Source: an uncultured Candidatus Peribacteria bacterium (lineage in GTDB: Bacteria > Patescibacteriota > Gracilibacteria > BD1-5 > UBA2023). Taken from it: 64,000 nucleotides of DNA. The DNA lies in contig CAZKUA010000006.1 of NCBI GenBank assembly GCA_964555845.1, forward strand, positions 8,215-72,214, read 5' to 3'. Within the stretch, counting starts at the first letter, position 1, and each line of letters begins with the position of its first letter. The notes below the pieces were generated by a model. The model searched no databases. It was not told the origin of the DNA and saw only the letters and a program-made list of their open reading frames with translations. Made by a program: the position numbers and the translations under genes. Positions 5,937 to 58,587 of the stretch are shown in pieces.

Positions 5937-6079
5937 AACTCTTCGTTAAAAACGAATGAAATTATATAAAAACAAATATTATGAAAAGGAGGGTGTTCTT
6001 TAACATAATATTTTTTATTTAATATAGATTTTTCCAAAGATTATAAAATATAAAAATATATAAAAATTAACTCTTTTAT

Positions 6080-6084
6080 GGAGG
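6080..6084 (+). promoter_or_regulatory. Strong Shine-Dalgarno site (GGAGG) 7 nt before the ATG at 6092
   Basis: Sequence tatGGAGGtacgaaaATG. Most neighbouring native genes have no comparable SD. Confidence 0.7.
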
Positions 6085-6091
6085 TACGAAA

Positions 6092-24772: not shown

Positions 24773-24784
24773 ATATAAAATAAT

Positions 24785-24809
24785 AAAGATCACCCCGCAG
24801 GTGGTCTTT
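24785..24809. terminator. Bidirectional rho-independent terminator
   Basis: aaagatcacc-ccgca-ggtggtcttt, flanked by T/A runs between convergent genes. Confidence 0.7.
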
Positions 24810-24830
24810 ATTATTTTGTTAGACTTTTTA

Positions 24831-27131
24831 TTATTTTATAATAATTTCTTTTGTTTCAGATTGTGTTGTTCCGTCTGTATATACTGCGGTTAGTTTTATT
24901 TTATAGGTTCAAGCATTTTCATATGTATGAGACGGATTTATCTCAGATGATGTTGTGTTATCTCAGAATTCCCAACTGTAGCTTTCTATATTTCCAGTTG
25001 AACCTAGTGTGTCAAAATCAATTGAATTTCAGACAGTTCCTGACGAAAGGCTCGAATTAATAATTAATTTTTTAGATAAAGATTTTATAATTATTTTCTT
25101 ACTAAGACTCTCTTTCGTTCAATCATCTTTTGTTATCGTGAGCTTTACACTATATTCTCCGGGGAAATTATATTTGTAATCCACTTTTGCGTCAGAATCA
25201 ATAGGCTCTTTTCATTCTCAGAAATCATAGGTATATTTTACTATACTTCATTCTCTTACTTCGCTAGCAGATCAATCAAAATGAACTATAACAGGAGCAT
25301 AAGAAGACCCAGATTCTATTTTTAATTTGATATCTATATCTTTTTTAATTCCATTAATTATTATAGTTTCATTTATTTTTTCTATATTATTTTTTAGTTT
25401 TGATTGAAAAGTATATTGCACAGTTATCGTATATTTTTTACTTTCTAAAAATTCTGCCACCACTGTTTCTCAAATTTTCTCAAATTTTTTATCTCAATTA
25501 AAATCCCATTCAACATTTGTAAGGTCATAAGTTGGATCATTTACGGCTACAAGGCCTGCATTAAAAGTTAATTTAGCAGGAATTCATTCTTCAATATAAT
25601 ATGCTTTGAGTTCTCTTTTATAAGTATTATCTATAATTGACGTCCTGTCTTCTGCTTGAATTTTTAGCATTGAATTATTATCATTAACTTCTCAGGTTTG
25701 AATTGGCTTAACCAAAGTTAGGGGTTTTCTAATAATTATAGAGCTTTTTATCTCAGATGTTCCTCATAAATTATCTGTTAAAATTACTTTTACGCTGTGT
25801 GCTCAAAAATTACTAAAAGTATATTCAGGACTTTCTTCTTCTCAAATTAAATTATTATCATCAGCCATCCATTTATAACTTGCTATTTTTTCTTTATTTT
25901 TTAATTCACCTATCATTAATTTCAAAATAAGTGGATTTTCTGCATCTTGTTCATAATTAATTACTCAAGTAATATTTTCTGAATTATTTTCTCAGTTTAC
26001 TATAAATATTCTATCACAAGTATCTCAATTTTTCTCACTGTTAATAATAGCAAGACATACTAATTCTTGTTCTCATGTTTTACTTATTACTTCAAATTTA
26101 TATGATTCTTTTGCTGGTTTTCATTCTTTTTCTGAGCTCTCAGTATACCATTTAATTCTTCAAAGTTGTTTTAGACTTGTGGCATCAAAAGTCGCAATAT
26201 ATCCTCACAGTCTTTGTTGTTTAAATACAGTTTCAACAATTCCCATAACATTAATTTCATTAAAAACCATTTTTATTTCTTTCTCTTTTCAGGTCAAAGC
26301 GTCTATTCATCTATATACTCAATTTGGTTTATAATTTTTAGCTTTGTCATATTTGAAAATAATAGCCTCTTCATCACTTGGATTTGTCCCTGATTTGTCA
26401 ATTTTATTATCTCAATCAAAATCTATATCATAAGATTCAATTTTAAGAAATTTACCAACATATTTTGCATCAGATTTAAAATCAAATCTCAGTGTTATTG
26501 GTCATATTAAATTTGAAAAATCATAAAGCTCAGAATTATCTTTGAATTTATCAGAAATAAATTTGTCGTTATCATATACAATAATTCATCAATTTGGGTT
26601 TGCATAATCTGTAGCTCATATTTTCTGAATTAGAAATATCCAAAGAGTAATTCCTGAAAATAAAATTATTCAAGTAAAAGCAGATGCAATTATAGATATA
26701 GTTTTCTTTTTTTTGTATTCTTTTTTTGTTAAAATTGCCTTAAATAGGAATATTATCCAGATTATAGAAAATGCAAAAGTTACAGTTCCAAACGCAATAT
26801 TAACTAATTTTTCAAGTAGGGATTTAATATTTTGAGGACTAATTCCAAGCGATAAAAAAAATTGTGCCTGTCCAGGATTAAATACTATATAAGCCAAAAA
26901 ACTTCCAAAAAATATAACACTTACTAGAAAAATTGCTCAACAAATTTTCACAAAATCTTGTTTTTTTGCAGCTTGTTTTGCTGTTTTAGAATTATCTAGA
27001 GTCTGATTAACTTGAGGTGGGGAAGTGTTTTCTATATCTTGATTTACTTCATCAGGAGTACTATCTGCACTTTCTAATATTTGAGACAAAAGACTATTTT
27101 CTTGTCATTTATTTTGATCATTTTCTGACAT
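24831..27131 (-). CDS. Membrane-anchored surface protein with several PKD/Ig-like domains, 766 aa
   Basis: N-terminal TM helices, then repeats such as VHFDGSASE...YTYDFGEGK...YKYNFPGEYSVKLTITKDDG and SYSWEFGDNTTSSEINPSHTYENAGTYKIKLTAVY. The frame matches track ORFs at 26897 and 25463. Confidence 0.75.
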
Positions 27132-27153: not shown

Positions 27154-30100
27154 TTATGATTTTAACCAATCTGGTAAATCGTCATCATTTTTAATATTTA
27201 TATCTTCTTTTTTTGATTTTAAATCTTTTACAGGCATTTCTTTTTTAGGTTTATTTTCTTCTTTCTTATTTTCTATTTTTATAATTTTCTCTTCTTTTTT
27301 CTCTGATTTTTTTTCTTTCTCTTTTACCCTTTCTTTCACAGGTTTTTTATGTTCTCAAGACACTTTTTTTTCTTTCTTTTTCTCATTCTGTCATTCCTGC
27401 GCAGGCAGGAATCTACTTTCTATTTCCCCTTCTTCTTTAGTCTCTTTAATTTCCTCTTCTTCTACAACTTCTTTTTTACTTACTAGACTTCATTTTAACC
27501 AATCTGGTAGCTCATCACTTGCTTCCTCAATTTTCTTTTCTTCAATTTTCTTTTCCTCAATAATAGTTGGAACTTCTACGACTTCAGGAATTTCCTCTGG
27601 AATTTCTGGAATTTCTTGTTTAGTATCACCAGATAATTCTTCATTAACTTCTTGTTCTAGTTCTTCTTTATTAATTCACTTTAACCAATCATAAGTTTCT
27701 TCTTCTTGTTTCATTTCATCTTGTTTTGTTTCTTCAATAATTTCTTCAGTTTTTTCTTCTTCAATTTTCTCTTCCTCAATAATAGCTGGAACTTCTACAA
27801 CTTCAGGAATCTCTTCTTGACTAGTCATAGTTTTTAACCAATCTGGTATTTTATTATCTTCTGGGGTTTTTTCTTCAAGAGATTCTACTCCCTCTCCCTC
27901 CGGGAGAGGGTTGGGGTGAGGGATTTCTTCGTTTGGAATTTCCTGAGCTTCTTCGTGTAGAGATGGAAGTGGTTCAGGAATTTTTTCTTCTTCAATTGGT
28001 GACATTATTGAAGATAAAATATCATCTTTCCTATCTTCAACTTTGTTTATAATTAAATTAGTTTCTCACTTTTTTTCATTCAAAAATCTCTCAATCAAAA
28101 AGTCTTGAAACGATAGATTTTCATTTTTATTTGCAACTTTAAAATACACAAATAATCAAAGTATCAAAGATATAACTCACAAAATTAAATATCCAAATAA
28201 TTTAACAAATCACATCAAAAATCACATAATTCAACCACTCTCACTTTTATTTTCTTCCACAACTTGTTGAGGTACATTTGCTTGTCCTCAATAAATAATT
28301 ACTTCTAATTGCGATTTTATAATTAATTTATCTTTATCACTAATTGTTGTATCATTTTTAATAAAATCAAGAATCTCTTTTCATAGAGTTTTGTTCATAG
28401 TTGTATTTGTCGGATGAGAAAGAATCTCATCTATATTTTTCATTATCTTATCATAAGATGCAATTGTTTTTGGAATTAGAGATTTTAGAACTTTTGCAGC
28501 TAATTTTATATCATCTTTTACCTGATCTTGTTTAACGAGTAGATTTTCTGCGAGATTATAAAATTCATCTTTTAATTTCTGATCCATAGAAGCAGTGGCA
28601 TTGATATAAGATTCAAAATCAATAATTGCCTTTGTTTTCTCTCTATCATCAAACCAGTTTTCTTGAATTAAAGAAAGAAATTGCATTAGCTTAACCCTTT
28701 CTCCTTCAGGAGCTTTTTTTATAAGATTTTTAATATCTTCTATGATAATTTTATCTTGTTCTCAAATATCTTTATTATCTTTCATTTCTACAGTTTCATC
28801 TTTATTTGAAGTACTTAATTTTAATAATATATCTTTACTTTCTTTTTTTCATGCTTCATCAATAATTGATAATCTTATTGTTTTTTCATTTTTTAGAAAT
28901 TCAAGATTTGAAGTAATAAACGGAGTTCATTTATTATATGATTCACTATTTTTATTATCACAATCATCATCTTTTGTCCCATTTAAATCTGAGTCAATTG
29001 AAATATCAGTATCCACACAATATTTTGCGATACTTCATTTTGATTCACCTAAATATATAAATAATTTATCTTGAATATTATCAATTTTTATTGTAGATTT
29101 TTCAACTGCTGGATATGTAAAATATACTAAATTATCTTTTCATTTTTTAATTCTTAATTTATTTACAACATCGCGTCTTACATCACTTTTAATTTCTTTA
29201 GATTCATTATTATCAAAAACTTTTAGATTAACAGAAGTAGGGAAGGCGTCATCTCCAAAATCATAAACAAAATAATCTAAATTTGAACTTGTTATACCAT
29301 TTCACAGGGTCCATAGCGCTCCATTATAAGTTCATTTTGAAGTATTAAATAACACTAACTTACCTCAAATTGCATAATATTCAAAATTTGGTTTGAGTAC
29401 ATTTTTAACAGTAATAATTTGATATTTTGTATTTGAAATTCATTTGTAAGTTGCTTTTACTTTGAAATTAAAAGTTCAAGGCATTGTATAAACATGACTT
29501 ATTTGAGGAGAAGAACTTGCTTGTTCATAGAATCAATTTCAGTCAAAATCCCATTTATATTCTACTTTTCCTGAAATATCTTTTCATAAAATATCTTTAG
29601 CTGACACCTTAAAATTAATTTCATCATTTGTAGAAATATTTGTCTTATCAACTTCTAGTGTAATTAGGGGAGTGTTAATATTATCTCCAGATAGTGATAT
29701 TGAATATCTTTGTTCTGAAATCTCATCTGTATTAACTTTCGCTCAATTAGAATCCTCGGCAATTAGCACAAAATAATATTTTCAAGTAATTTTTGGTAAT
29801 ACAAAAGTAGTAAAGCTTGATTTTGTAATTCTAAAATCTTGAGGCTCTGGGTCTGAATCTGTATAATAATACCAAAGGTAAGATACAATTACTCAATCTT
29901 CATCAATTGGATTATTTGCCGATACTTTTACAACCACAGGATCTGACTCTATATTGGCTGCACTAATAGTTAATCCAGGAATTTTTGGTGGAATATTTTC
30001 TACTTTTATGTAAATTGTATTTTTATGAATTTTTCATGTTTTTTGGCTTTTAACTGTGAGACTCACAGGAAAACATCCAAGCTCATCGAATTTATAAGTA

Positions 30101-32505
30101 AAGCTTTTTTGATTTGAATTTTTATTCATATATCTCCATGAATAATCAAGTCAAGCCGTATTTCCATCTGTATTTATACTATTTTCTCCAGACAATGTTA
30201 TTACTTTAGATCTATCAATCAAATAAGCCTCATTTCCAGAACAACCACCTGCAGTTGGAAAATAATCCTCATTATCACTTTTTACACTAATTAGCGCAAA
30301 TGGACTATCTCAATATGTAACATAGACATTTCTTGAAATTGTATTTGAACTATTATTATCTCATTTCACAGTTAAGCTCACATTATAAGTTCAAGATTTT
30401 TTGTAAGTATGACTTATTTTTGGGCTATTAGTTACATTTGTATTATCATCTCAAAAATTCCATTCATAAGAAATTGCTTCTTTCGAATTTGCTATAAACA
30501 TTACAGGATTTCAGATTTTTACTATTTTTGGTACAAAATTTAACTTAACTGAAAGTAGACTATCTACTTGTAAATCTTTTTTAACTGACACGGTTTTTCA
30601 TTCCTGATTTGAAACTTCAAGTACAATTTTGTGAGTTCAAAGCGAATCAAAAGTATAATAACCTCTTGCTCAACCTCTTTGAGAGTTTTCTAAATCAACT
30701 TTTTGTCAGTCAAAAAACCAGCTATATTTTAATTTTGAATTATCAAAAGTATCTGGATCATAACTTAGTGTTCCATCAAATAAATAATAATTAGGAGTTT
30801 CTGAGCTTGTTTGTCTAGTTTCAAAAGAGCCAACTGGATCTCTTGTCTCAATTGTAATTACTCTTGTGTCAGTATCTTCTCTTCAAGACGCTGATCTTGA
30901 TTTTAATCTCACACTAAATTTACCTGTTTTTCTAAATTTAAAAGATATATTTTCGAGAGCTGAACTAAATACAACTTGGTCATTTGATAAATCAACTATT
31001 TTCCATTCATAATCTAGTTTTGTAGTGTTAAACACAGAAAATGTAGATAGTTTAAAATCATCTCATACAAATCAATCTAATTTATCTACTCTAATTGAAG
31101 CTATTGGATCCCTCACTTCAAGGTCCATTTCCTTTGCAATTTCTTTACCTTCATTTGTAAGAAGCTTTAATTTTATTCTATAAATTCACTCATTTGAGAA
31201 ATATTGCTTTTCAATTCTTGGATATAAATTATTTGAATAACTCACTCAATTCCCAAAATCCCAAAAAGTCTTCGTAAAAGAAGATCATCCTGTAGCCTGA
31301 CTTGCAGTAGCATCAATAATTATTCCGGCTCTTCCAAGCGCTGGTGTAATTTTGAATCTATCGAGGTCTGATACATTAACTCAATTAATATACAAATATA
31401 TAGTTCAGATTTTAGGTAGGACATTTATATTTACACTTGATGAAAATGGTAGAGTATCAATTTTTCATTTTTGATTACGACTAGCTGATACTATTGTAAG
31501 ATTTACAATATAAGTTTTTTCTTCTTTAAATGTCTTTACAATTGAAGGACCAGTCCCCAGAACTGTTCTAGTTCCGTCTCAATTTTTTATCCACCAAACA
31601 TAATTTCAGCTTGGAATAGGAACTCCAGATGGATCTACAACTCCCTCAGATCTTAGGCTCACGGTAAGTGGAGCGTTTCCTGAGTTTGGATTAGCTGAGA
31701 TTTTTGCCATAATTCTCCCAATTTTTGCCTTAGTTAGAAAATCATTAATGCTTTTTGCGAGTTCAGTTATTCTAGTTTCTGATTCTGGATTTTTGGCTAC
31801 TACATCCACTGCAATAAGTAGATTTTTACCTAAATTATTATTTGAAATATAATCATTATTTTCCGGAAAAGTATTTATAGCTTCTGTAACTAATCTTTTT
31901 AGCTCAGTTAAATTAGTACTACTTAATTTTGAATTTACTCTATAATCTCTCTCTAATTGACTTGTCAAAAGTTCAATTCATTTCTTGTATTCATCAAAAG
32001 TGTTTTTATCATTATCAGTGTAAGCCGTAGCCTCTTGCACTATACTCGGGAAATTAAATCAGGTCGGGGTAGTTCATCAGTTTACCATATTGATAATAAA
32101 GCTTATTATAGGATAAGCCATAAACATTAGTATTATTCAAATTAGAACATGCAAAATTGTAGTTTTTGATTTTTTCACTTTTTCATCAGATCACCCAGCG
32201 ATGAGTATATTGAATCCTGCATAAATAATGTATAGCACTCCAATTACTCCCACAAAATAAATAACATATTTTACTATATCTTGCACTTTTTGAGAGAATT
32301 TTTTCTCTGTTTCAACATTGTTAAGACCATTTTTCACCGTATTAACTCAGCTCTCTATACTACAATTATCTCAGCTTTTGCAATAAATAACCTGTGTATC
32401 ACTACCTCATCCAATATCAAATATTCAGGCAGAAGCTATTCCTACATTTAAGCATATCAAAAGGCTTAATAAGAGTTTTGCAAAAATCTTTTTGTTCATT
32501 TTCAT
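27154..32505 (-). CDS. Giant surface protein of about 1783 aa: signal peptide, TrbC/VirB2-type pilin-like two-helix module, PKD/Ig-like array, TM helix, acidic cytoplasmic tail with four PDWLK motifs
   Basis: Four track ORFs (starts 27339, 28005, 28686, 31968) and the ATG at 32505 share one frame. Six PKD motif checkpoints (WDFGNG at 31248, EWNFGDD at 30453, KWDFDGNG at 29535 and others) are also in that frame. Confidence 0.75.
27390..27413. repeat. GTCATTCC...GGAATC hairpin repeat copy lying in frame inside the giant CDS
   Basis: gtcattcctgcgcaggcaggaatc is read on the minus strand as RFLPAQEGQ. Confidence 0.8.
27890..27922. repeat. GC-rich hairpin element inside the giant CDS
   Basis: ccctctccc-tcc-gggagaggg plus ttggggtgaggg encodes PHPNPLPEGEGV. 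Confidence 0.7.
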
Positions 32506-32656
32506 ATTTATTTTTCTAAAATTTATTATAATTACCCATCAATCTTACCACATTTTTTCTATAAATGCAAAAAATTAACCCAACTTTTTTTAAAATAAAT
32601 TATATTTCCAACTATTGTATTTACTTCACTGATAAAATCAATAAAAATTAAAAAAT

Positions 32657-32684
32657 TTGACTCTCCAAAAATATGGACTACAAT
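32657..32684 (+). promoter_or_regulatory. Sigma70-type promoter for the first tail-fibre-like gene
   Basis: TTGACT, 16-nt spacer, TACAAT. Confidence 0.55.
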
Positions 32685-32720
32685 ACTCCAGATTTAATTT
32701 ACAATTTAATCTATAATTTT

Positions 32721-33740
32721 ATGAAAAAATTTAAAAAACCTATTTTATCAGCTGTAGTATTTTTCTCTACACTTATAGTATTATCAGTTTGATATGCCAC
32801 ATGGAATAATACCATGACTACAGTATGAACAGGAAGTGGTCTAACAGCAAATTCCTGGAATGCTATGGTAGATAATATCAATGATTTAAGCTCTAGATCT
32901 TGGTGACTTAACTGATTAGCTAGTTATTATACTGCTTGAAATGTCGGGATTGGTACGACGAGTCCTAGTTCAAAATTACATATTAGTGGCTCAGATACAG
33001 GAGTTGGTATTTTTGGAACTACTAGATCTAAAATGAATTTATGGACTACTAACCAGCCTGGTTGGCAGATAGAGGTTTGAGATGCTACTGGTAATCAAAA
33101 TGCAGGTGATCTTGGTTTTATAGAATCTTGAGTTGCTGCCAGACTAGTTTTAGCAAAAGGTGGTAATGTTGGAATTTGAACAACTGCTCCTGCTGAAAAA
33201 TTACAAGTAAATGGAAATATTCTCGCGGCAAACAATACTTCTATTTGAATTCATCCAACATATCCAACATTTTCAGCATGGTGGAGAAAATGAAGTGATT
33301 ATAGCATGTTAACAGATTGAATAGGTACATATATTAATGCTCCTTCGGCTGGTGGAGGTGTTTATCTTCGAGTTGCTAATGCTGATAGAATGATTATTTA
33401 TTCAAATTGAAATGCATGGCTTGCTGGTACTCTTACTCAAGCGTCAGATATTCGTTTAAAAAAAGAAATTTCTCAAATAGAAAATCCATTAGAAAAAATT
33501 TCTCAACTTGAAGGAGTTACTTATTTTTGGAAAGATAATACAAAAGATGCTAAACGTCAAATTGGTGTAATTGCTCAAGATGTAGAAAAAGTTTTTCCAG
33601 AAACTGTGAATACTGATGAAAAATGAATGAAATCTGTTGCATATGGGAATTTAGTTGCACCCCTTATTGAGGCAATAAAAGAACTAAAATCTCAAAATGA
33701 TAAATTGGAGGAGAGAATTAGATTATTGGAGAATAAATAA
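32721..33740 (+). CDS. Tail-fibre-like surface protein with C-terminal peptidase S74 intramolecular chaperone domain, 339 aa
   Basis: N-terminal hydrophobic anchor and Gly-rich beta repeats (NVGIGTT). The C-terminus reads SDIRLKKEI...LEGVTYFWKD...IGVIAQDVEKVFPETV...VAYGNLVAPLIEAIKEL. Confidence 0.8.
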
Positions 33741-34290: not shown

Positions 34291-34367
34291 ATCCCTAATT
34301 CTCAAATAAAAATTTGCAAAATGCAAATTTTTTATATTATGGGTGGGTATTATTAATACTATAAAAT

Positions 34368-35372
34368 ATGTTTGAAGCGTTAATTTTGAATTGAATAGGG
34401 ACTTTATTTTGAGAGAAATCGGCTATTGAGATTAAGTCAATTTGAAATACTCTAAAAGTTCATGAAAAAATCCATATTTCTAATATGTTTCAGATGATAA
34501 TTTCACTCTTAATCCTTTCTTTCACAAGAAATTTCAAATTTATTTTTGACATTAGGCTAGTTTTTTTGTTTTTAGTTTTAATTATTTCAAGTATATTATT
34601 TAATATTTTTGTAATTAAAGCCATAGAAAACGCTGATAGATCGACAAATGGACTTCTTAGTATTTTAGCAATACCCTTGCTTTTGGTTTCAGATATTTTC
34701 CTAAAATATGATATTACAACTTATCATATTATCTGAATTATTTTTATAGTTACGACTTTGCTTACTATAAGTCTTAGATGAACCATTAACTTAAAATGAG
34801 CTCAATTTACACTACTTACTCAAGTTTTTGCATTTATAAATATTATGATTTTTAAATATATAATTACGCATTATGCTTCAACAGAATTATTAAATATAAT
34901 AACAAGTTTGGTTTTATATATTTGAAGCTTTGCTTTAATACTTAGGAAAAGCGATAGATTTGAAGTTTTAAATAAAGTATATGATAGAAAATATATAAAA
35001 TTTTGAGTGTTTTGATGACTTGGATGAGCATTTAATAGTATGTGATTTATGTTTGGACCAGCCTCAGTTATCACGGCTTTAAAGAGAATACTATCTATGT
35101 TCTGGGGAGTTGTGATGTGAAAGATATATTTCCATGAAGAAAGATTTTTCCAGAAAATGGCAAGTGTGTGAGTAATTGCAATGTGAGTTGTAATAATGAA
35201 TTTCCCAGTTATTGTTACAAACAAAGCACTTCTAACAAGTGTAAATTCAGCACTTTTAATTAAATGAGATATAAAATGATACAACCAAGCTTTAAAAGAA
35301 TCTAATATAGATCTAAACAAAAATTTCAGAGAAAATGCCGCGAGAGCTGAGCAATTATATAGTATAAATTAA
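34368..35372 (+). CDS. Polytopic membrane protein (DMT/EamA-like transporter suspected), 334 aa
   Basis: About 9-10 hydrophobic helices. The frame matches track ORF 34485-34736. Confidence 0.45.
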
Positions 35373-36740
35373 TTAATTACACTGCTCCTCGAACCCAGCG
35401 CCATCAATTAGGTGACTTTTGTTGCAATCAATGTATTTAATTCATTTTTCTAGTACTACATTATCTTCTTCTTTTGAACTGAAATTTTTGTTAAAATAAT
35501 TATCAAATTCTATTTTGAGTCATTTTGTAAAACTCTTTAGCTCAACGCTCGGATCCATAAAGCTTTCATAAGTTACATATTCGTAATCTTTTGATACACT
35601 TTCTTTTTTTCTTTGGTCTTCTAGGGCCCTTATTGCGCTTAAATAAGCTGGGAATGATTTTAGATACTTTTCTTGAGCTTCTTGTCTAGATAGATAATTC
35701 ATAAAATCGTATCCCATAGCCAGATTTTGAGTTTGTTTTGATAGTGCAAAATAATTGTAATTAACTAAATTAGTAGCACTATTATCTTCTTTATTTGAAG
35801 ATATTTGAGGTAATGGAGAGGTTCTAAGAAATTTTTTATTAATATTTACAGTTCCAGAAGTTCTTTTTATAGCAAGCTCAATTTCTTTAACTAAAGAAGG
35901 GTATCCAATTATCATTCATATTTTTCATCTTACAAACATATCTACTGTTGTAAGACCGAGTGAATCCATTTCATCTTGGAATTTTGTAATATCATTGTTT
36001 GGGTCTGTGGCATAGGATTTATAAGCTTTCATCGCGAGAATCGCATTATTTGATTTTAAATCTTTATAGTTATTAACTCAGTTTTGTAACAAAAACACCG
36101 ATAAAATATCTGGAGCTTTGAAAATATATTTTTCTCCAAGTCATAATCAAATTGTAATATAATCACTACTTTGCTCAGAATTTTTGATTTCTTCGTCAAG
36201 CTCAGCCCATGTTGCAGGGGTATTTCTCACTAATTTCCAATTATAAAAAACTCAAAGAGTTTCATATCCAAGTGGTATTCATTTTAAATATGTTTTTACT
36301 AAATCTCAATCTTTTTCTTTTAAAATCATATCATCAAAGGCCTTATTAAACCTTTTTGAAAAATCTAGGGAATCAATAACTTCGTTTGGAATTGCTTGAA
36401 TTTTTGTCTCAAGTAAATCTCATCAATTATTATTTACTACAAAAACATCCGGAGAATTATTGTCAGCCATTACAGTCAATAGGGTTTTCTCATAATCCTC
36501 ATAAGAACTAAATTTTGTAAATTTTATATTTGTATTCTCATAGCTCGGATATCTTTGCTTAAATCAAGAGATTATATCGCTAAAACCCGCACTCTCATCT
36601 CCAACCACCCACACATTAAATTCCTTTGGACCAGAGACTTTTTTTTTATTACTAGATGAATTAAGTAGTGAAACTCAATAAACTATAATCATAAGCAAAA
36701 CTGCTCACAACGCTCAAAATATCATTTTGTTTTTTGACAT
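35373..36740 (-). CDS. ABC-transporter extracellular solute-binding protein (family 1-like), 455 aa
   Basis: N-terminal anchor, then FNVWVVGDES...PDVFVV...GIPLGYETLGVFYN pattern. Extends track ORF 35520-35915 in frame. Confidence 0.65.
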
Positions 36741-37191: not shown

Positions 37192-37225
37192 CTTCCGATT
37201 TCATTTATAATTTAACTTTTTTATT

Positions 37226-38260
37226 ATGAAGCTCCCAAAAAATTTATATTCCCGCCTAACTCTAATAACTGTAGCCACAGTTGTAACTTGATATGCTATA
37301 ATATATGCATACACAAATTTACCAACTCAGGAATCTTGAAATCCTCTTACAAAAACTATTTGGAATGATGTAGTAAATAAAATAAATGATATCTGAACAA
37401 GAACTGACTGAATTACCAGTAGTGTTTGAGGAAAAGTATGAGTTTGAACTACAAATCCATATGCTAAAATACATTCAATGTGACAAACATTTATGATGTG
37501 ATCTACGCCTGACTTAAATTGGTGATCAGTTTGAAGTGTATTCCAATGAGAATTCTGAGCCGCAAGCGGAAATACCTATACAAAATTAGAATCATTTGTG
37601 AACTGAGGATCTGGGTACGGTGATTTAGTTTTAAATCCAGGATGATGAAATGTTAATATTGGTCCATATGAATTATGAGGAAGTAAATTAAAAATTGTAC
37701 AACCTACAGATAATCTCCGGACAGCTTTAATAAAAAGCACTAGTCCAACTACATGATTAAATTTCTGATTAACAGTTAGAGCGTGAACAAATTCAGCTGA
37801 TTCAGGATTTTTAGTTATGGATAAAAATTCAACTGTATATCAATTTTATGTTAGATGAGATGGTAATGTTTGAATTTGAACAAATAATCCTTGAACAGAT
37901 AAGCTTTATGTTAACTGAACTGCTAGAGGAACTTCATGGACAAATATATCAGATCAAAGATATAAAAAGAATATAACTCCAATAAATAATTCTCTAGATA
38001 AAGTATTAAAACTTAATTGAGTAACTTTTGATTGGAGAGTCGATGAATTTAAGAATAAAAATTTCCCAGAATGAAAACAGGTTTGATTTATAGCCCAAGA
38101 AGTGGAAAAAGTAATCCCTGAAGTTGTAACAACTGATGGAGAATGATATAAATGAGTAGAATATGCGAATATTACTGCATTACTTGTAAATGCAATAAAA
38201 GAACAACAAAAGCAAATTGAGGAATTAAAAAGCGAGATAAGGGAATTTAAAAATAAATAA
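37226..38260 (+). CDS. Tail-fibre-like surface protein with S74 chaperone domain, paralog of 32721-33740; 344 aa
   Basis: SDQRYKKNI...LNGVTFDWR...VGFIAQEVEKVIPEVV...VEYANITALLVNAIKE. It shares the N-terminal WN..V..IND motif with its paralog. Confidence 0.8.
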
Positions 38261-40083: not shown

Positions 40084-40779
40084 TTATACATAATATGCTT
40101 TTGGTGGATTTATCTTTTTTCCAAAATGTTTTTTAAATTCACTGAGAGTAAATATTTTGTCTGCAGGAAAATCTCGCGGTCATTCCCGGGCTTTTTCAAA
40201 TCATAAAATCTCAAAGATAACTTGTTTTCATCAATGAATAAGTATATTTAAAATTCTTTCATTCATTTTTTTATCTCAAAAATCTATAGAAACTCGCTCA
40301 TCCCAAGCAGTAGAAGCAAAATTCTCTCAACTATTTTTGTAAAAAAAGACTTGTGAAGGCTCTTGTGTAAGTTTTCATCTATCTCTTAATACACCTTCTC
40401 GCATTAGACTATTAATTATACTTAAAGTTTTATTATGCAATTCATCCCATTGTTCTCAGTAAATTCTTTTGACATTTTGTTCTACAATTAATTCAAAATC
40501 ATTTAACAAGTTATTTAAACGAATTTCTTTTTGTTTTTGCATTTCTAGTTCGTGATTTTTTCTCTTTTTTTCAAATAATTTTTGTCAAATATACTCAGCT
40601 TTTTTCTCTCACTTTAATATTTCATTTGCTCTACAAGAAAACATAGATTTCAGCATACCAAGCTCATTTTCTCTGTAAGGCTTTTCAATATATGCCATTT
40701 CCTCAGCTATTTGAGAATCTATTATTTTTCCATTATTATCCTTTAATCCATAAGGAAAGTCAACAAAATTCGTTGTCAT
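40084..40779 (-). CDS. Hypothetical protein, 231 aa; N-terminal module paralogous to 46310-47461
   Basis: MTTNFVD...IDSQIAEEMAYIEKPYRENELGMLKSMF...ANEILKG. Confidence 0.5.
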
Positions 40780-40856
40780 AATTATTAAAGTTAAAAATTA
40801 ATTTATATCTATGTTATCATTTTATTTCTATTTTTGCAAATATCTGAATTTTAGTT

Positions 40857-46309: not shown

Positions 46310-47461
46310 CTATATATTCAATAAACTTTGTCTTAATTCATCTCTTTCAATTTTCTGTAATCTCTCTTGTTCTTTTCTTGCTTGCTCTTCGGCTTCTTTT
46401 CTCTTTCTTTCTTGTTCCATCTTTTCTTCTGCCTCCTTTTTAATTCTATATTGCTCTGCAATTTCTTGTAATCTCTCTTTTTCTTCATTCTCTAAGAAAA
46501 TTTTATATTCTTCTTTATTCATATTATATTGAGATTTTTGTTCTCTCTCAAATTCATTAATTTCATCTCAAAAATATTTCATAAAATGATTATTTGCCCT
46601 AAGATTATCAGTTGGCATACAATCAAGAAGTCATTTCTCTCCATTTTTTCTTAAAGTTGCTTCGATAAAGACTTTTGTTCAATATTCTTTTAAATTATAT
46701 CAAGAATCATCACAGTATTTTATTATCATAGCGCTTGCTAGAGACTTATTCATCATACATTTTTCAAGATAACTGTTAAATATATTTCATACTCTATAAA
46801 TACTTATACATCTTTTACTTCTATAAAAGCTATTTTCATTTTTTCTATCTTTTTCACTTAACATAAACAAAAACAGTTCATCATCTTCAGTTGTTCTCCA
46901 ATCAGTTGGTATCATAAGAATTTCTCGCATATTATCACTCGCGTCAATTCTATTATAGAAATTTTGGTATAAAGCCCGTCTAGCTTTTCTATAAATAATA
47001 TATGAATCATCCGAGCGTTCTGCATTCGCTTTATTGGCAAAGTCATATAAGAAATTTATTGCTTCTCATAATTCAGGTTGAGTTTGAAGATACTTAATAT
47101 ATATATCTAATTTCTTTAATTCCTGCGGATTTCTTAATTCAAATTCTTCTTTTTCTTTGATGAGTCTTTCGGTTTCTTTATCTCTTTTTATTCTATCTTC
47201 TTCAGCTTTTCTCTCTTCAGCTATTCTTAATTCCTCTGCAAGTCTTAATTTTTCTTCTAATTCTTTTTCAAACTCTATTTTTTTATTTAAGAATTCTCCT
47301 GATTTTTCTTGTCATTTTAATATCTCGGAAGCTCTTCATATGAATATTGATTTTATAATTCCTAATTTATTTTCCCTAAAAGGCTTCTCAATATATGCCA
47401 TTTCCTCGGCTATTTCATAATCTATTACACGACCGTCTGTATCTAAAAATTTCGTTGTCAT
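46310..47461 (-). CDS. Hypothetical coiled-coil protein, 383 aa; N-terminal module paralogous to 40084-40779
   Basis: MTTKFLD...IDYEIAEEMAYIEKPFRENKLGIIKSIF...ASEILKG. In frame with track ORF 46310-46522. Confidence 0.55.
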
Positions 47462-47494
47462 AGTTCTAAAGGTTAAAAGCTAAATTCTTCTTTT

Positions 47495-48746: not shown

Positions 48747-48749
48747 AAT

Positions 48750-49712
48750 ATGTTTGATTTTATACAAATTTTTGCTGATTATATTTCTTATTCTTTGCTC
48801 AAACTTGATGGTTCTCATCTTGGAGAAGCACTGAATTTTTTCATTTATGATAGTATTAAGATTTTTTTCTTGATGATTTTTATTGTTCATTTAATGACTT
48901 TAATAAATCATTTCTTACCGATTGAAAAAATCAGAGATTTCTTGGCAAAAAACAAGATGTTTTGATTTGATTATTTACTTTCTGCTCTATTTTGAGCTGT
49001 AACTCCATTTTGTACTTGCTCAAGTATTCCAATGTTTGTTGGATTCTTGAAGGCTGGAATTCCTCTTGGAATCACATTTACCTTCCTCATTACATCACCC
49101 CTTATCAATGAAGTCGCGGTTGCCTTGTTTATAGGACTTTTTGGACTTAAAATCACAGCTATTTATGTAGCCTCTTGAATGTTTCTTTGAATGTTTTGAG
49201 GTTTTATAATTGGGAAATTAAAAATGGAATGAGAAGTGGCAGAATTTATTTGGAAAAATAAATGAGTCCCACCTGAAGTAAAAGAAGAAACCAGAAAATG
49301 GAATAAATTTTTAAGAGAAGTAAGTAAGGACAGTTTTTCTCTTGTCTGGAAAATTATGCCCTATGTTTTACTTGGAGTAGCTATTTGATGACTAATTCAC
49401 GGGTTTGTTCCAACCGGATTTTTTGAAAAATATATCACCAAATCAAATCCTTTCGCAGTACCAATCTCAGTAATTCTAGGGATACCGATGTATGCCAATG
49501 CTACAAGTATTCTTCCTATAATTCAAGCTCTTATCACGAAATGAATTCCCCTCGGAACCGGACTTGCCTTTATGATGGCGGTTGTTGGACTTAGTTTACC
49601 AGAATTTTTGATTTTAAAGAAAGTTATGAGCATGAAATTACTCCTTACATTCTTCGGAATCGTCGGATTTTTTATGATTTTACTTGGGTATTTTTTTAAT
49701 GCCGTGATGTAA
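48750..49712 (+). CDS. Predicted permease (ArsP_1/DUF318-like), 320 aa
   Basis: The [16 protein letters not shown] motif and multiple TM helices. Confidence 0.7.
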
Positions 49713-49713
49713 A

Positions 49714-49744
49714 AAATCCCACAGGCGCTCAGCCCATGGGATTT
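49714..49744. terminator. Candidate hairpin between convergent genes
   Basis: aaatccca-15 nt-tgggattt followed by a T run. Confidence 0.45.
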
Positions 49745-49772
49745 CAAATTTTTTTATCATACGAGTGGAAAT

Positions 49773-50639
49773 CTAACTTCAGATCCCACTCACAATAATT
49801 TTGATGTCTTCGGACCTAAGGAGACCGAAACCAAGTTGGTTCAAAATCTCCATATTGGCTAGTTCCAGAGCGTCCATTCTGGATATTCCTGTCCTTATAT
49901 TTATTTGATGAAAATCTCCTTGTCCCAATATCGCCTTGTAGGCCTCATGGTTTTGAGGTCGAAATTCGACATGGAGATTCCCGTCGAAATGCTCTTCCTT
50001 TCTCCATCCTGATTCTTCAGAGCTGAAGATACTGATTTTGGCAGGAATTTCAGCCGGTTCCAGTTTTGCGACCGGGAAATACAAATCTTCCAGAGTCTTG
50101 AATCCCAAGGGAACGATTACTTCCTCTGTTGTCACTTTACCATCCGCTTTTGAAAACCACACAAAATTGGGATCAGGCTTGGATAAGCTTGAAGATATCG
50201 ACCAGGTATTGATAGTTAAGGCAATAACAACAAACACTGGAAGATATTTCCTGTGTTTATCCCACAAATATCCTCCGAAAATTGCAAAGAGAGCCATGAG
50301 ACAAAAGCTAAATCCTACTATTGTAATAACAGGACCATTCCCAAAAATAACACCGCAAATAGAAATAATAATACCAATGATACCAAGAAAAAGAGTTTCT
50401 CCACTATTAGGCAATGATAGTACAAAAATGAAAACCCCGATAATGAGATTGGTTAAAACCAACCTTTCTATTGATATCTGAAAATGTGGCTGGTGTAGCC
50501 CATAGTAGGCGATACCAACCAGTATTGCAGTCATCATTATTGTCAGCATTGTGGAAAGCCGATTTTCTGGCTTCCAGATAAGGTTAAGGAACGAAGAAAC
50601 AGACCATTGTGTTTTTGGTACAACATTTGTTGCTTCCAT
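49773..50639 (-). CDS. Membrane protein of unknown function (4-5 TM helices plus soluble C-terminal domain); 288 aa in table 25, 286 aa in the standard code
   Basis: Intact ORF in the standard code with no internal TGA. By my count all 22 Gly are GGN. G+C is higher than the flanks. The standard-code TGA stop (49779-49781) reads as Gly in table 25, so translation would continue to the TAG at 49773-49775. Confidence 0.75.
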
Positions 50640-50646
50640 GATTTTT

Positions 50647-50654
50647 CCCTCCTT
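50647..50654 (-). promoter_or_regulatory. Strong Shine-Dalgarno site AAGGAGGG 7 nt upstream of the ATG at 50639
   Basis: The plus strand reads ccctcctt. Confidence 0.7.
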
Positions 50655-50716
50655 GCGGGATATTTTATTTTTGTCTTGATATTTGTATTCGCTGAAAATT
50701 ATTTCCAGTAATTCTA

Positions 50717-50744
50717 CTTATAATCAAAAACATATTTTTGTCAA
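50717..50744 (-). promoter_or_regulatory. Sigma70-type promoter for the membrane-protein gene
   Basis: On the minus strand: TTGACA, 16-nt spacer, TATAAG. Confidence 0.5.
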
Positions 50745-50772
50745 TAGAAAATTTGGGATTATTTTGGTAAAT

Positions 50773-50800
50773 TTGATTTTACTCAAAAAAATATTACAAT
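50773..50800 (+). promoter_or_regulatory. Sigma70-type promoter for rubrerythrin
   Basis: TTGATT, 16-nt spacer, TACAAT. Confidence 0.5.
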
Positions 50801-50833
50801 ACCCTTGTATTTTATTTTCTAATTTTAAGAAAT

Positions 50834-51409
50834 ATGGCAAGCATTAAATGAACTCAGACAGAGAAAAATTTGTTAAAATCTTTCGCGGGGGAATCTCAGG
50901 CTAGAATGCGTTATGATTATTTTGCAAAAATTGCAAAAAGTGAATGATATGAACAAATTAGAGCATTTTTTGAAGAGACAGCACTAAACGAAAAAGAACA
51001 TGCAAAGAGATTTTTTAAATTTCTTGAATGAAGTATGGTAGAAATTACTGCTACTTATCCGGCTTGAAAAATTGGGACAACACTCGAAAATCTGGAGGCT
51101 TCGGCAAATTGAGAGAATGAGGAATGGACTTTACTTTATCCAGAATTTGCGAGAATTGCGGATGAAGAATGATTTGGAGAAATTGCGAAAGTCTGGAGAA
51201 ATATAGCACTTGTTGAGAAAGCTCACGAGACAAGATATAGAAAACTTCTTGAAAATATTAAAAATAATGAAGTTTTTGAGAAATCTGAAATAAAAAAATG
51301 GAAATGTGCGAATTGTGGATATATACATACTGGAAAATCTGCTTTAGAAGTTTGTCCAAGCTGTGATCATCCAAAATCTTACTTTGAAATTTGGGTAGAG
51401 AATTATTAA
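50834..51409 (+). CDS. rbr: Rubrerythrin, 191 aa
   Basis: Ferritin-like ExxH motifs (EKEHAKRF, EEW...E..H) and the C-terminal rubredoxin CANCGY...CPSCDHP. Confidence 0.9.
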
Positions 51410-52987: not shown

Positions 52988-53169
52988 TTAGAAATATTTT
53001 TTATTATATTGATTTTTGTTTTTTTACTAAATCTCACTCATCTTTTTATACGAATCTCATTTATTTTTCTTTCAAAAAACTAATTAGAAAAAAGTATGCT
53101 CAAAAATTTGCACTTATTTAAAAAATATGATAAACTTAAAAAGAATTTAACAAATAACTTAATATTTAT

Positions 53170-55503: not shown

Positions 55504-55528
55504 AAAAATAATAATTTAAAATAAAATT

Positions 55529-58550: not shown

Positions 58551-58587
58551 AGGTGTAACAAAATTATTTTACACCTAATTTATACCT

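What the first reader, a model, noticed from the sequence alone, without database searches (positions are those of the whole stretch)
27154..32505. A roughly 1783-aa surface protein fuses a pilin-like module to a PKD array and a cytoplasmic repeat tail
Four separate track ORFs and six PKD motif checkpoints all lie in one frame, giving a single 5.35-kb ORF.
- N-terminus: a signal peptide followed by two hydrophobic helices, ...VIYFVGVIGVLYIIYAGFNILIAGGSDEKVKKSKTTILHVLIGIILMFMAY. This matches my recollection of the TrbC/VirB2-type T4SS-pilin domain that is common in CPR genomes.
- Middle: a long run of PKD/Ig-like repeats.
- C-terminus: a TM helix near 28130-28230 and an acidic tail.
A 766-aa PKD protein follows 22 nt downstream (24831-27131). 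In an epibiotic lineage this pair is a candidate host-attachment apparatus. I do not know of this domain fusion having been described.
Basis: partly seen in the sequence, partly recalled or inferred. Interest (0 to 1): 0.7.

Follow-up and report, generated by a model that had tools for sequence, protein, structure and literature searches.

The report
Pilin-anchored giant PKD surface protein
A real 1783-residue membrane protein of a TGA-recoded Gracilibacteria genome joins a conjugation-type (VirB2-like) pilin hairpin to a long array of Ig-like PKD domains and a cytoplasmic tail carrying repeated "LPDWLK" docking motifs; it belongs to a conserved, undescribed three-gene surface cassette whose function is still inferred rather than shown.

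Summary
With TGA read as glycine (table 25), 27154-32505(-) is one 1783-aa ORF.

Architecture, N- to C-terminus:
- signal peptide;
- Cys-x5-Cys head plus a two-helix hairpin that passes Pfam T4SS_pilin when scanned alone;
- a 4-helix unit;
- eight PKD-like domains plus two other beta domains;
- an 8-helix stalk;
- a TM helix;
- a disordered acidic tail.

New points:
- It is one of a family of about 45 or more orthologs confined to Gracilibacteria-type MAGs.
- In about 5 of 32 loci the pilin hairpin is a separate gene directly upstream. This fusion/fission pattern ties the pilin to the PKD protein.
- The gene sits in a conserved cassette: SBP-like gene, (pilin), giant PKD protein, ~770-aa PKD partner. 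No VirB4, VirB6 or VirD4 gene is nearby.
- The tail carries 3-7 copies of a sharp motif, [acidic]-[LIV]-P-D-W-L-K, usually ending the protein. This looks like a multivalent cytoplasmic docking signal.
- The ectodomain evolves more slowly than its neighbours, which argues against a variable host-range adhesin.

Most likely it is a doubly membrane-anchored surface contact or scaffold protein coupled to an unknown cytoplasmic partner. Host attachment and pilus incorporation remain untested. No paper found describes it.

The parts
27154..32505 (-). Complete ORF (1783 aa plus stop) of the giant pilin-PKD-tail protein, read with table 25 (61 TGA = Gly)
   Evidence: orthologs at E = 0
32614..32641 (-). 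Promoter-like -35/-10 pair (TTGATT-16-TACAAT) about 110 nt upstream of the ATG. This is a consensus match only.
32425..32505 (-). Signal peptide (aa 1-27, ...NVGIASA|G)
   Evidence: hydropathy; sequence; N-terminal helix in the AF2 model of the ortholog
32089..32397 (-). T4SS_pilin/VirB2-like module (aa 37-139). It has a Cys42-x5-Cys48 head, TM1 (about aa 76-105), a conserved basic loop GGSDEKVKKSK, and TM2 (about aa 115-143).
   Evidence: PF18895 30.1 bits against GA 26.6, and 17/17 family members hit it; 136.9 bits to the family profile; NF045849 35-39 bits against cutoff 40; AF2 hairpin H72-104/H109-144 in P0002
31720..32013 (-). Conserved AYTxxDxxTFxxYK linker motif and membrane-proximal four-helix unit (aa ~165-262)
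   Evidence: AF2 of ortholog P0002, helices 169-258, pLDDT above 90; alignment A2
29152..31704 (-). Array of eight PKD-like Ig domains (aa 268-352, 383-469, 471-557, 570-652, 654-735, 764-840, 949-1039, 1044-1118). It also contains a distinct beta domain at aa ~841-948, the most conserved segment of the protein.
   Evidence: Pfam PKD/PKD_4; iterated family HMM; conservation profile; Foldseek match to ColG PKD, TMt 0.77
28786..29151 (-). Tenth beta-sandwich (aa 1119-1240) with a disulfide-bracketed Asp-rich loop C-VDTDISIDSDLNGTKDDD-C-DN. Calcium binding is my inference.
   Evidence: AF2 model mb506bf13da10, strands 90-191; invariant D/N columns; Cys1163/Cys1182
28246..28785 (-). Membrane-proximal eight-helix 'stalk' domain (aa 1241-1420; conserved REKTK and DEILSHPTN motifs). 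It matches no Pfam family, PDB sequence or fold.
28129..28236 (-). Third TM helix (aa 1424-1459)
28090..28110 (-). Conserved juxtamembrane cytoplasmic helix FQDFLIE (aa 1466-1472)
   Evidence: invariant F, D, I columns; AF2 helix 428-437
27157..28128 (-). Cytoplasmic low-complexity acidic tail (aa 1460-1783; 31% D+E, 17% K+R), with short DNA-level tandem repeats
27832..27849 (-). Tail motif copy 1: IPDWLK (aa 1553-1558)
27679..27696 (-). Tail motif copy 2 (degenerate): TYDWLK (aa 1604-1609)
27493..27510 (-). Tail motif copy 3: LPDWLK (aa 1666-1671)
27160..27177 (-). Tail motif copy 4, C-terminal: DDDLPDWLK-S-stop (aa 1777-1782). The W is a TGG codon.
24831..27131 (-). Cassette partner 'PKD2' (766 aa): acidic cytoplasmic N-terminus, three TM helices, non-PKD ectodomain, C-terminal PKD domains. 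It starts 22 nt after the giant gene.
   Evidence: orthologs downstream in 21 loci
24775..24819 (.). 20-bp-stem terminator-like palindrome just past the PKD2 stop, suggesting a two-gene transcript
35373..36740 (-). SBP_bac_8/SBP_bac_1-like, membrane-anchored solute-binding-type protein. It is the conserved upstream cassette gene. In this window it is separated from the giant gene by two inserted plus-strand genes.
   Evidence: Pfam 1.2e-16; directly upstream in 29 related loci

Best explanation
What it is. This is a lineage-specific (Gracilibacteria-type CPR) envelope protein anchored in the cytoplasmic membrane at both ends.

Topology (inferred).
- After Sec export and signal-peptide cleavage, the disulfide-bonded head lies outside.
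- The VirB2-like hairpin spans the membrane twice, with its conserved basic loop in the cytoplasm.
- About 1290 residues lie outside: a four-helix unit, ten beta-sandwich domains (eight of them PKD-like), and an eight-helix stalk.
- A third TM helix returns the chain to the cytoplasm.
- There, a disordered acidic tail displays 3-7 copies of the motif [acidic]-[LIV]-P-D-W-L-K.

What is shown.
- The ORF and the genetic code.
- The domain composition.
- Family-wide conservation.
- The pilin module exists either fused or as a separate adjacent gene.
- The cassette is SBP-like gene, (pilin), giant protein, PKD2.
- T4SS ATPase and channel genes are absent from the neighbourhood.
- The ectodomain evolves slowly.

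What is inferred.
- The pilin-type hairpin is a membrane-embedded partner subunit, not just a hydrophobic anchor.
- The PKD loop projects some tens of nanometres from the cell and binds a conserved ligand or forms a surface scaffold, together with PKD2 and the SBP-like protein.
- The repeated LPDWLK motifs recruit several copies of one cytoplasmic protein. That would cluster or position the complex, or couple outside contact to an intracellular machine.
For: ORF and code.

Domains:
- Pfam PKD hits.
- T4SS_pilin above the gathering threshold for the isolated module, with 17/17 members hitting it and 14/17 also hitting TrbC.
- The module's profile finds 48,514 representative clusters, mostly stand-alone proteins of about 140 aa that match end to end.
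- AF2 models show the hairpin, 4-helix unit, PKD domain, two beta-sandwiches, 8-helix stalk, long TM helix and juxtamembrane helix.

Topology:
- Hydropathy is conserved in about 40 orthologs.
- Basic residues lie on the predicted cytoplasmic sides (sequence).
- Cysteines are paired only in predicted extracellular parts: 42/48, 755/811, 1163/1182.

Fusion/fission:
- Separate pilin genes of 142-167 aa lie directly upstream of hairpin-less orthologs in L005, L006 and L007.
- Overall count: 24 fused, about 5 split, 3 without an adjacent pilin.
- An analogous cassette exists in a standard-code lineage: two pilin genes, a pilin-PKD fusion, and a 711-763-aa partner that is PKD-rich in L012.
- All other long single-hairpin hits with Pfam matches are PKD fusions.

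Cassette: the SBP-like gene is upstream in 29 loci and PKD2 is downstream in 21.

Motif:
- In 139 instances, P is present in 131, D in 131, W in 139, L in 132 and K in 111, while the surrounding tail is about 10-20% conserved.
- The motif is absent from every other ORF in 665 kb of related DNA.
- The stalk-TM-tail module is found only in this family.
Against: - There is no experimental or expression evidence.
- The cytoplasmic partner of the motif is unknown, and my database searches for the motif in other proteins failed technically.
- PKD domains are generic, so binding specificity is unknown.
- The ectodomain is conserved more than its neighbours. This fits a scaffold or a conserved ligand, but it weakens 'host-specific adhesin'.
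- The two-helix hairpin is a simple fold. No solved pilin was recovered by sequence profile or Foldseek, so homology to structurally characterised VirB2/TraA rests on Pfam and NCBIfam profiles only.
- Three loci have no adjacent pilin, so the hairpin is not strictly required in cis.
Confidence: 0.5

Rival explanations
1. A true modular T4SS pilin. The N-terminal module is extracted from the membrane and incorporated into a VirB2-type pilus, at the tip, at the base or as a decorating subunit. The pilus is built by a VirB4-type T4SS encoded elsewhere. The PKD ectodomain is then the pilus-borne adhesin, which would fill the 'missing adhesin' of CPR T4SSs.
For: - The module matches PF18895 and TrbC, and nearly matches the Mycoplasma ICE pilin-like family NF045849.
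- It is homologous end to end to stand-alone pilins.
- It exists as a separate gene in some genomes and next to pilin arrays in another lineage.
- The CPR T4SS survey reports VirB2-like pilins widely and found no PrgB-like adhesins (doi 10.1101/2025.01.22.634366).
Against: - The C-terminal TM helix and cytoplasmic tail would tether the chain to the membrane unless it is cleaved.
- No VirB4, VirB6 or VirD4 gene lies within the 64-kb window or within 6-10 kb (the flank fetched) either side in the eight loci with gene calls.
- The same survey reports VirB6 absent in Gracilibacteria.
- No structure-level match to solved pilins was found.
Confidence: 0.2
2. A core envelope or cytoskeleton-coupled scaffold rather than an attachment device. 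The PKD loop forms part of a surface layer or cell-shape and division landmark. The LPDWLK repeats mimic the FtsZ C-terminal peptide, whose consensus from my own knowledge is D-[IL]-P-x-[FY]-[LM]-[RK], to dock FtsA- or SepF-type proteins.
For: - The gene is single-copy and syntenic across the family among housekeeping genes.
- The ectodomain evolves more slowly than its neighbours.
- The motif resembles the FtsZ C-terminal peptide by inspection, including IPDWMR variants.
- It is multivalent and sits at the extreme C-terminus, as in FtsZ.
Against: - The resemblance is recalled from memory, not tested.
- W and the D before it are essentially invariant here, whereas FtsZ usually has F and a small residue.
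- No FtsZ or FtsA gene was captured in 665 kb, so no comparison was possible.
- PKD arrays are more typical of binding proteins than of S-layers.
Confidence: 0.15
3. A nutrient or glycan capture complex. The always-adjacent SBP-like protein and the PKD proteins bind host-derived oligosaccharides or other polymers at the cell surface for uptake. The pilin hairpin and tail serve only as anchors.
For: - The SBP_bac_1/8 gene is directly upstream in 29 loci.
- PKD domains occur in many glycan- and protein-degrading enzymes; Foldseek's best domain match is the collagenase ColG PKD domain.
Against: - No ABC permease or ATPase genes were called in the cassette or flanks of the loci with gene calls.
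- No catalytic domain is present.
- This reading does not explain the sharply conserved multivalent cytoplasmic motif.
Confidence: 0.1
4. An artefact: a chance open frame or pseudogene produced by reading TGA as sense.
For: Table 11 splits the region.
Against: - The 5.35-kb frame is free of TAA/TAG.
- TGA aligns to Gly in orthologs.
- There are about 45 or more full-length orthologs, some with 0-2 TGA codons.
- Pfam domains run throughout the frame.
Confidence: 0.01

Closest known systems
CPR/Patescibacteria VirB2-like T4SS pilins (Pfam PF18895 T4SS_pilin; TrbC/VirB2 PF04956)
   Same: The N-terminal module has a signal peptide, a Cys-pair head, two TM helices and a conserved Gly/acidic/Lys loop. 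Its profile match is above threshold, and it aligns end to end with stand-alone pilins of about 140 aa.
   Different: - Here the module is fused to about 1640 further residues, including a third TM helix and a cytoplasmic tail.
- It is not next to virB4 or other T4SS genes.
- Polymerisation is unknown.
Mycoplasma ICE 'Mbov_0395 family pilin-like conjugal transfer protein' (NCBIfam NF045849)
   Same: The hairpin aligns over positions 7-80 of the 80-position model, at E = 4e-10 (P0002) and 8e-9 (query). Both come from wall-reduced or monoderm-type lineages.
   Different: - The score is just below the equivalog cutoff (39.2 and 35.1 against 40).
- There is no ICE context.
- It is fused to a giant ectodomain.
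Modular type IV pilins such as Streptococcus sanguinis PilB/PilC (own knowledge)
   Same: The concept is the same: a pilin module carrying a bulky grafted adhesive module.
   Different: - It is a different pilin superfamily (type IV pilin with a class III signal peptide, against a VirB2-type hairpin).
- No prepilin-peptidase motif is present here.
- Modular type IV pilins lack a C-terminal TM helix and cytoplasmic tail.
Giant PKD/Ig-repeat surface proteins of CPR predators (Vampirococcus lugosii membrane proteome; PMC8080830)
   Same: Both are very large predicted membrane proteins with PKD domains in a TGA-recoded CPR lineage, proposed to mediate host recognition.
   Different: That paper does not describe a pilin module, the SBP-pilin-PKD cassette or the LPDWLK tail. 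No orthology to its proteins was tested here.
Transmembrane adhesins coupled to the cytoskeleton through short tail motifs: apicomplexan TRAP/MIC2 (acidic tail with a conserved sub-terminal Trp), integrins, Mycoplasma terminal-organelle adhesins (own knowledge)
   Same: The logic is the same: an adhesive repeat ectodomain, a TM helix, and an acidic disordered tail with a conserved Trp-containing motif at or near the C-terminus.
   Different: This is an analogy only. There is no homology, the partner is unknown, and the motif is multivalent here.
Pam pilus system of CPR (bioRxiv 10.64898/2026.03.03.709456)
   Same: It is a CPR-specific surface filament built from Ig-like domains, with membrane-anchored components.
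   Different: - Pam pilins assemble by donor-strand exchange and have no VirB2-like hairpin.
- They occur in Saccharimonadia and Microgenomatia.
- The only link is an insignificant PamR hit of PKD2, 17.6 bits against a cutoff of 300.

Membership tests
Pfam PF18895 T4SS_pilin (TrbC/VirB2 superfamily) | Profile match at or above the curated gathering score | tested here: met
   The isolated module scores 30.1 bits against 26.6. All 17/17 family members match (best 1.3e-13) and 14/17 also match PF04956. Caveat: within the full-length protein the whole-sequence score is 24.8, below the cutoff.
Pfam PF18895 T4SS_pilin (TrbC/VirB2 superfamily) | Signal peptide followed by two TM helices joined by a short charged loop | tested here: met
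   Hydropathy in the query and about 25 orthologs; AF2 hairpin H72-104/H109-144; conserved loop G-[DE]-[DE]-x-K-[VM]-K-K-[AS]-K.
Pfam PF18895 T4SS_pilin (TrbC/VirB2 superfamily) | Small stand-alone protein (about 100-170 aa) | tested here: not met
   The module is fused to a 1783-aa protein. Orthologous loci do encode it as a separate 142-167-aa gene, and 24 of 32 loci are fused.
Pfam PF18895 T4SS_pilin (TrbC/VirB2 superfamily) | Genomic linkage to T4SS machinery (VirB4, VirB6, VirB3/PrgI, coupling protein) | tested here: not met
   None in the 64-kb window. None within 6-10 kb (the flank fetched) either side in L001-L008, L011 and L012. Whole genomes could not be examined.
Pfam PF18895 T4SS_pilin (TrbC/VirB2 superfamily) | Assembly into an extracellular pilus | not testable with these tools
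   Needs multimer modelling or experiment.
Pfam PF18895 T4SS_pilin (TrbC/VirB2 superfamily) | Structural similarity to solved VirB2/TraA pilins | tested here: inconclusive
   Profile searches against PDB found nothing significant. Foldseek hits of the multidomain model were dominated by PKD/Ig folds.
PKD domain proteins (PF00801/PF18911) | Profile matches above threshold and a beta-sandwich fold | tested here: met
   PKD_4 125 bits and PKD 115 bits; eight repeats delimited; Foldseek match to the ColG PKD domain, TMt 0.77.
NCBIfam NF045849 Mbov_0395 pilin-like conjugal transfer protein | Equivalog score of at least 40 bits | tested here: not met
   39.2 bits (P0002) and 35.1 bits (query). This is a near-miss covering the whole model.
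Type IV (class III signal peptide) modular pilins | Prepilin-peptidase cleavage motif and N-methylated hydrophobic N-terminal helix (Pfam N_methyl) | tested here: not met
   No N_methyl hit was found, and the N-terminus is a type I signal peptide ending ASA|G.
CPR Pam pilus (PamA/B/R) | NCBIfam Pam models; donor-strand-exchange Ig pilins | tested here: not met
   The only hit is PKD2 against PamR, 17.6 bits against 300. The architecture differs.
FtsZ C-terminal-peptide-like docking motifs | Consensus D-[IL]-P-x-[FY]-[LM]-[RK] at the end of a disordered linker, binding FtsA/SepF/ZipA-type partners (own knowledge) | not testable with these tools
   The motif [DE]-[LIV]-P-D-W-L-[KR] fits the pattern only loosely by inspection. 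No Gracilibacteria FtsZ or FtsA gene was captured, and no complex prediction was available.

The most novel reading that the evidence does not exclude
The protein is a transmembrane coupling device. Its repeated C-terminal LPDWLK motifs would be a multivalent mimic of the FtsZ C-terminal peptide, or of another cytoskeletal docking peptide. On this reading, a cell-surface contact structure built around a conjugation-type pilin module is wired directly to the division or cytoskeletal machinery (FtsA- or SepF-like proteins). That would let an epibiotic, genome-reduced bacterium tie growth or division to contact with its host.
Probability: 0.08. Interest if true: 0.9.

Novelty: new variant of a known kind. 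Interest (0 to 1): 0.6.

Why it matters
Gracilibacteria and their relatives are uncultured or barely cultured, recoded, host-dependent bacteria, and their cell-contact machinery is essentially unknown.

- VirB2-like pilins are widespread in CPR and essential in the one genetically tractable species, as cited in the T4SS survey. Yet no adhesin has been linked to them.
- This family gives a gene-fusion ('Rosetta-stone') link between such a pilin and a giant PKD surface protein.
- It defines a conserved three-gene cassette that can be targeted in metaproteomes, cryo-ET and the few available co-cultures.
- It exposes a sharply conserved, multivalent cytoplasmic peptide motif. Such motifs are rare in bacteria and can be used directly as bait to find the intracellular partner.

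If the pilin module does polymerise, this would be the first modular VirB2-type pilin.

Tried and rejected
1. Searching the 5.8-billion-protein database for other proteins carrying the LPDWLK motif failed.
   - A 12-column motif alignment is too short.
   - A 73-aa synthetic concatemer produced only 14 candidates and one meaningless hit.
   - So motif occurrence outside the family is tested only in 665 kb of local DNA.
2. The FtsZ-mimicry idea could not be tested. No ftsZ or ftsA gene is in the window or the fetched loci.
3. Profile searches against PDB for the pilin module and the stalk found nothing meaningful; the hits were GPCR or rhodopsin TM noise.
4. Foldseek of both AF2 models gave only generic PKD and tandem-Ig matches: ColG PKD; the Aureispira GhpA 'grappling hook' at TM about 0.14; IZUMO1/STAT3-like at TM of 0.25 or less. 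I do not take these as homology.
It was repeated with six sequences.
7. The apparent 'hairpin-less' state of P0017 was a truncated gene call. Read through, L003 is fused.
8. The Pam pilus system and a 'RodZ' label on one fragment were considered and rejected as unrelated or uninformative.
9. No tRNA or Rfam element is in the window to corroborate the genetic code independently.

Full report
**1. Observation**

With the standard bacterial code the region is a set of short ORFs. Allowing TGA as sense gives one frame, 27154..32544 on the minus strand, with 61 in-frame TGA codons and no TAA or TAG. The first ATG, at 32505, gives 1783 aa. Most ORFs of the window behave the same way.

In a MAFFT alignment with 42 orthologs, the query's TGA positions fall overwhelmingly on glycine columns: G 1172 against W 300. 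The W residues belong to database entries that were translated with table 4. Several TGA codons are the Gly of PKD 'WxFGDG' motifs. The code is therefore table 25.

**2. Anatomy** (query numbering from the ATG at 32505)

- Signal peptide, aa 1-27.
- Head with an invariant Cys42-x5-Cys48, followed by two TM helices (about aa 76-105 and 115-143) joined by the conserved loop GGSDEKVKKSK.
  - This module scores 30.1 bits on Pfam T4SS_pilin (cutoff 26.6) when scanned alone, and 24.8 bits inside the full protein.
  - All 17 orthologous modules hit PF18895 (best 1.3e-13), and 14 also hit TrbC/VirB2.
  - NCBIfam gives a near-threshold, full-length match to the Mycoplasma ICE 'pilin-like conjugal transfer protein' family (39.2 and 35.1 bits against 40).
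  - A profile of the module finds 48,514 representative clusters. Most of the best hits are stand-alone proteins of about 140 aa that match end to end. There are also tandem multi-hairpin proteins and a few long fusions.
- A family-derived HMM delimits eight PKD-like domains between aa 268 and 1118. A distinct beta domain at about aa 841-948 is the most conserved stretch of the protein.
- AF2 model of the C-terminal part: two beta-sandwiches, one with a disulfide-bracketed Asp-rich loop; an eight-helix domain; a long TM helix; and a short juxtamembrane helix carrying the conserved FQDFLIE.
  - The helical stalk has no Pfam, PDB-sequence or Foldseek relative.
- Tail, aa 1460-1783. It is acidic, low-complexity and poorly conserved apart from one motif.

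**3. The tail motif**

Across the family I collected 139 instances of [acidic]2-4-[LIV]-P-D-W-L-K-[GS]-[ST]. P is present in 131, D in 131, W in 139, L in 132 and K in 111. There are three to seven copies per protein, and the last copy usually forms the extreme C-terminus, '...DDLPDWLK'.

The query has IPDWLK, TYDWLK, LPDWLK and a terminal DDDLPDWLKS. The W is a genuine TGG codon.

The motif occurs in no other ORF in 665 kb of related DNA. The stalk-TM-tail module was found only in this family.

Sharp conservation of a short peptide inside a fast-evolving disordered region, in several copies, is the signature of a linear docking motif. Its position after a TM helix, with flanking basic residues, places it in the cytoplasm (inference from the positive-inside rule).

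**4. Family and context**

A full-length search returned about 45 orthologs (32-97% identity, 1500-2000 aa). Those with source names are labelled Gracilibacteria or 'gcode 4'. Many carry precomputed PF18895 plus PKD, and one JGI name even reads 'PKD repeat protein/type IV secretory pathway VirB2 component (pilin)'.

A scan of species-representative genomes gave 30 loci, all Gracilibacteria, 'Peribacteria' or Patescibacteria MAGs.

*Fusion and fission.* Some orthologs lack the hairpin.
- In L005, L006 and L007 a separate T4SS_pilin gene of 142-167 aa lies directly upstream.
- In L005 the pilin ORF ends with TAG. The next ORF begins with its own signal/anchor and resumes at 'AAYTESDSDTFAAYKK', exactly where the query continues after its hairpin.
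- Over all loci with the 5' end present: 24 are fused, about 5 are split and adjacent, and 3 have no adjacent pilin.
- By the Rosetta-stone logic (established comparative-genomics reasoning), this links the pilin and the PKD protein functionally.

*The cassette.*
- An SBP_bac_1/8-like gene lies immediately upstream on the same strand in 29 loci.
- A ~770-aa partner, PKD2, lies downstream in 21 loci.
- In this window the SBP-like gene (35373-36740) is separated from the giant gene by two inserted plus-strand genes.
- A promoter-like site upstream and a strong terminator-like hairpin after PKD2 fit a two-gene transcript.

*A second lineage.* A more distant, standard-code lineage has an analogous cassette: two T4SS_pilin genes of about 320 aa, a 1617-aa pilin-PKD fusion without the LPDWLK tail, and a 711-763-aa partner that is PKD-rich in L012. 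Every other long single-hairpin hit that had a Pfam match also carried PKD domains.

*T4SS linkage.* No VirB4, VirB6, VirD4 or type IV pilus machinery occurs in the window or in the flanks of ten loci with gene calls. The published CPR T4SS survey used PF18895, does not mention PKD fusions, found no PrgB-like adhesins, and reports VirB6 absent in Gracilibacteria.

**5. Rate of evolution**

| Region (window vs L001, its closest distinct relative with context) | Identity |
|---|---|
| Pilin module | 64% |
| 4-helix unit | 65% |
| PKD array | 67% |
| Stalk | 67% |
| TM region | 61% |
| Tail | 29% |
| Flanking SBP-like protein | 59% |
| Flanking PKD2 | 57% |

The ectodomain is therefore under stronger constraint than its neighbours. 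This fits a conserved ligand or a structural role better than a variable host-range determinant.

**6. Mechanism**

*Shown.* The ORF, the code, the domain order, the conserved hydropathy pattern, the fusion/fission, the cassette, the motif, and the lack of local T4SS genes.

*Inferred.* The topology is head out, hairpin loop in, 1290-aa loop out, tail in. The protein is thus tethered at both ends, and its two membrane-proximal helical units may pack into a stalk from which the beta-domain array projects.

My best reading (confidence about 0.5):
- It is a surface contact or scaffold complex made of the giant protein, the pilin-type hairpin (in cis or in trans), PKD2 and the SBP-like protein.
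- Its position or output is coupled to an unknown cytoplasmic protein through multivalent LPDWLK docking.

Rivals:
- A true modular VirB2-type pilin carrying an adhesin on a T4SS pilus (0.2). The C-terminal anchor and the missing machinery weigh against it.
- A core envelope or division-linked scaffold whose motif mimics the FtsZ C-terminal peptide (0.15). The resemblance is from memory and untested.
- An SBP-centred capture complex (0.1). No transporter genes were called nearby, and the motif would be unexplained.
- An artefact (0.01 or less).

**7. Comparison and novelty**

The parts are known kinds: a VirB2/T4SS_pilin hairpin and PKD domains. The combination is not described in any paper I could search:
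- the pilin module fused to, or encoded next to, a giant doubly anchored PKD protein;
- a dedicated cassette with an SBP-like protein and a second PKD protein;
- a family-specific multivalent cytoplasmic motif.

The recently described CPR Pam pilus is a different system. The proteins themselves are already in public databases under generic names.

I rate it a new variant of a known kind, with interest 0.6. The reasons are a solid and well-conserved architecture, a testable link between CPR pilins and a surface adhesin-like protein, and a peptide motif that can be used directly to fish for the partner. Function remains inferred.

Noticed in passing
window 32652-33740 (+) and 37211-38260 (+): Two Gly-rich, N-terminally anchored proteins end in a Peptidase_S74 'chaperone of endosialidase' domain of the tail-fibre type (E = 8.5e-21 and 6.9e-20). 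The first, together with an EamA-like gene at 34365-35372, is inserted between the SBP-like gene and the giant gene. Those two genes are adjacent in almost all related loci.
   Followed up: partly
window 6071-7666 (+): A histidine kinase (Tll0287-like sensor, HisKA, HATPase_c) has no TGA codon in 532 codons and sits in a 2-kb stretch of GC 0.34, against about 0.27 elsewhere. It looks like a gene acquired from a standard-code organism.
   Followed up: partly
window 48747-51409: A second stretch of higher GC (0.33-0.34) includes a 1-TGA ORF with no Pfam hit (49773-50717, minus strand), an ArsP-type permease (48747-49712) and a rubrerythrin (50771-51409). It is possibly another horizontally acquired island.
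   Followed up: partly
window 53158-55503 (+) and 55520-58312 (+): Two adjacent large ORFs (782 and 931 codons stop-to-stop; the second has 70 TGA = Gly codons and a Gly-rich hydrophobic C-terminal part) have no Pfam match at all.
   Followed up: partly
window 40084-40797 (-) and 46310-47479 (-): Two paralogous proteins of unknown function share a conserved N-terminus (…IAEEMAYIEKP[YF]REN.LG…) and have no Pfam hits.
   Followed up: no
window 58579-59898 (+): A Fic/DOC-family protein (Fic 8.1e-16, with a weaker, sub-threshold Fic_N match).
   Followed up: no
L010 2264-2686 and 5362-6456: A stand-alone T4SS_pilin gene closely related to the module lies about 2.7 kb upstream of a T2SSF (PilC-type platform) gene, among unannotated ORFs and not next to PKD genes. 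The closest free pilins are therefore not all cassette-linked.
   Followed up: no
L011 7399-16579; L012 8111-16992: A standard-code relative lineage has an operon of two T4SS_pilin proteins of about 310-330 aa, a 1617-aa pilin-PKD fusion lacking the LPDWLK tail, and a 711-763-aa partner. The operon lies beside secE-nusG-rplK-rplA.
   Followed up: partly
proteins P0001, P0004, P0005, P0007, P0008, P0010, P0013 and others: Many public entries of this family were translated with table 4, so they carry Trp where the genome encodes Gly (4-8% W). This distorts alignments and probably explains missing PF18895 annotations on some members.
   Followed up: yes
L004, L008, L041: One sub-clade, whose tails end in ...PDWLK[TA][DE].[DE]K in L004 and L008, has lost both the adjacent pilin and the upstream SBP-like gene. 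In L008 a T4SS_pilin gene lies about 5 kb away.
   Followed up: partly
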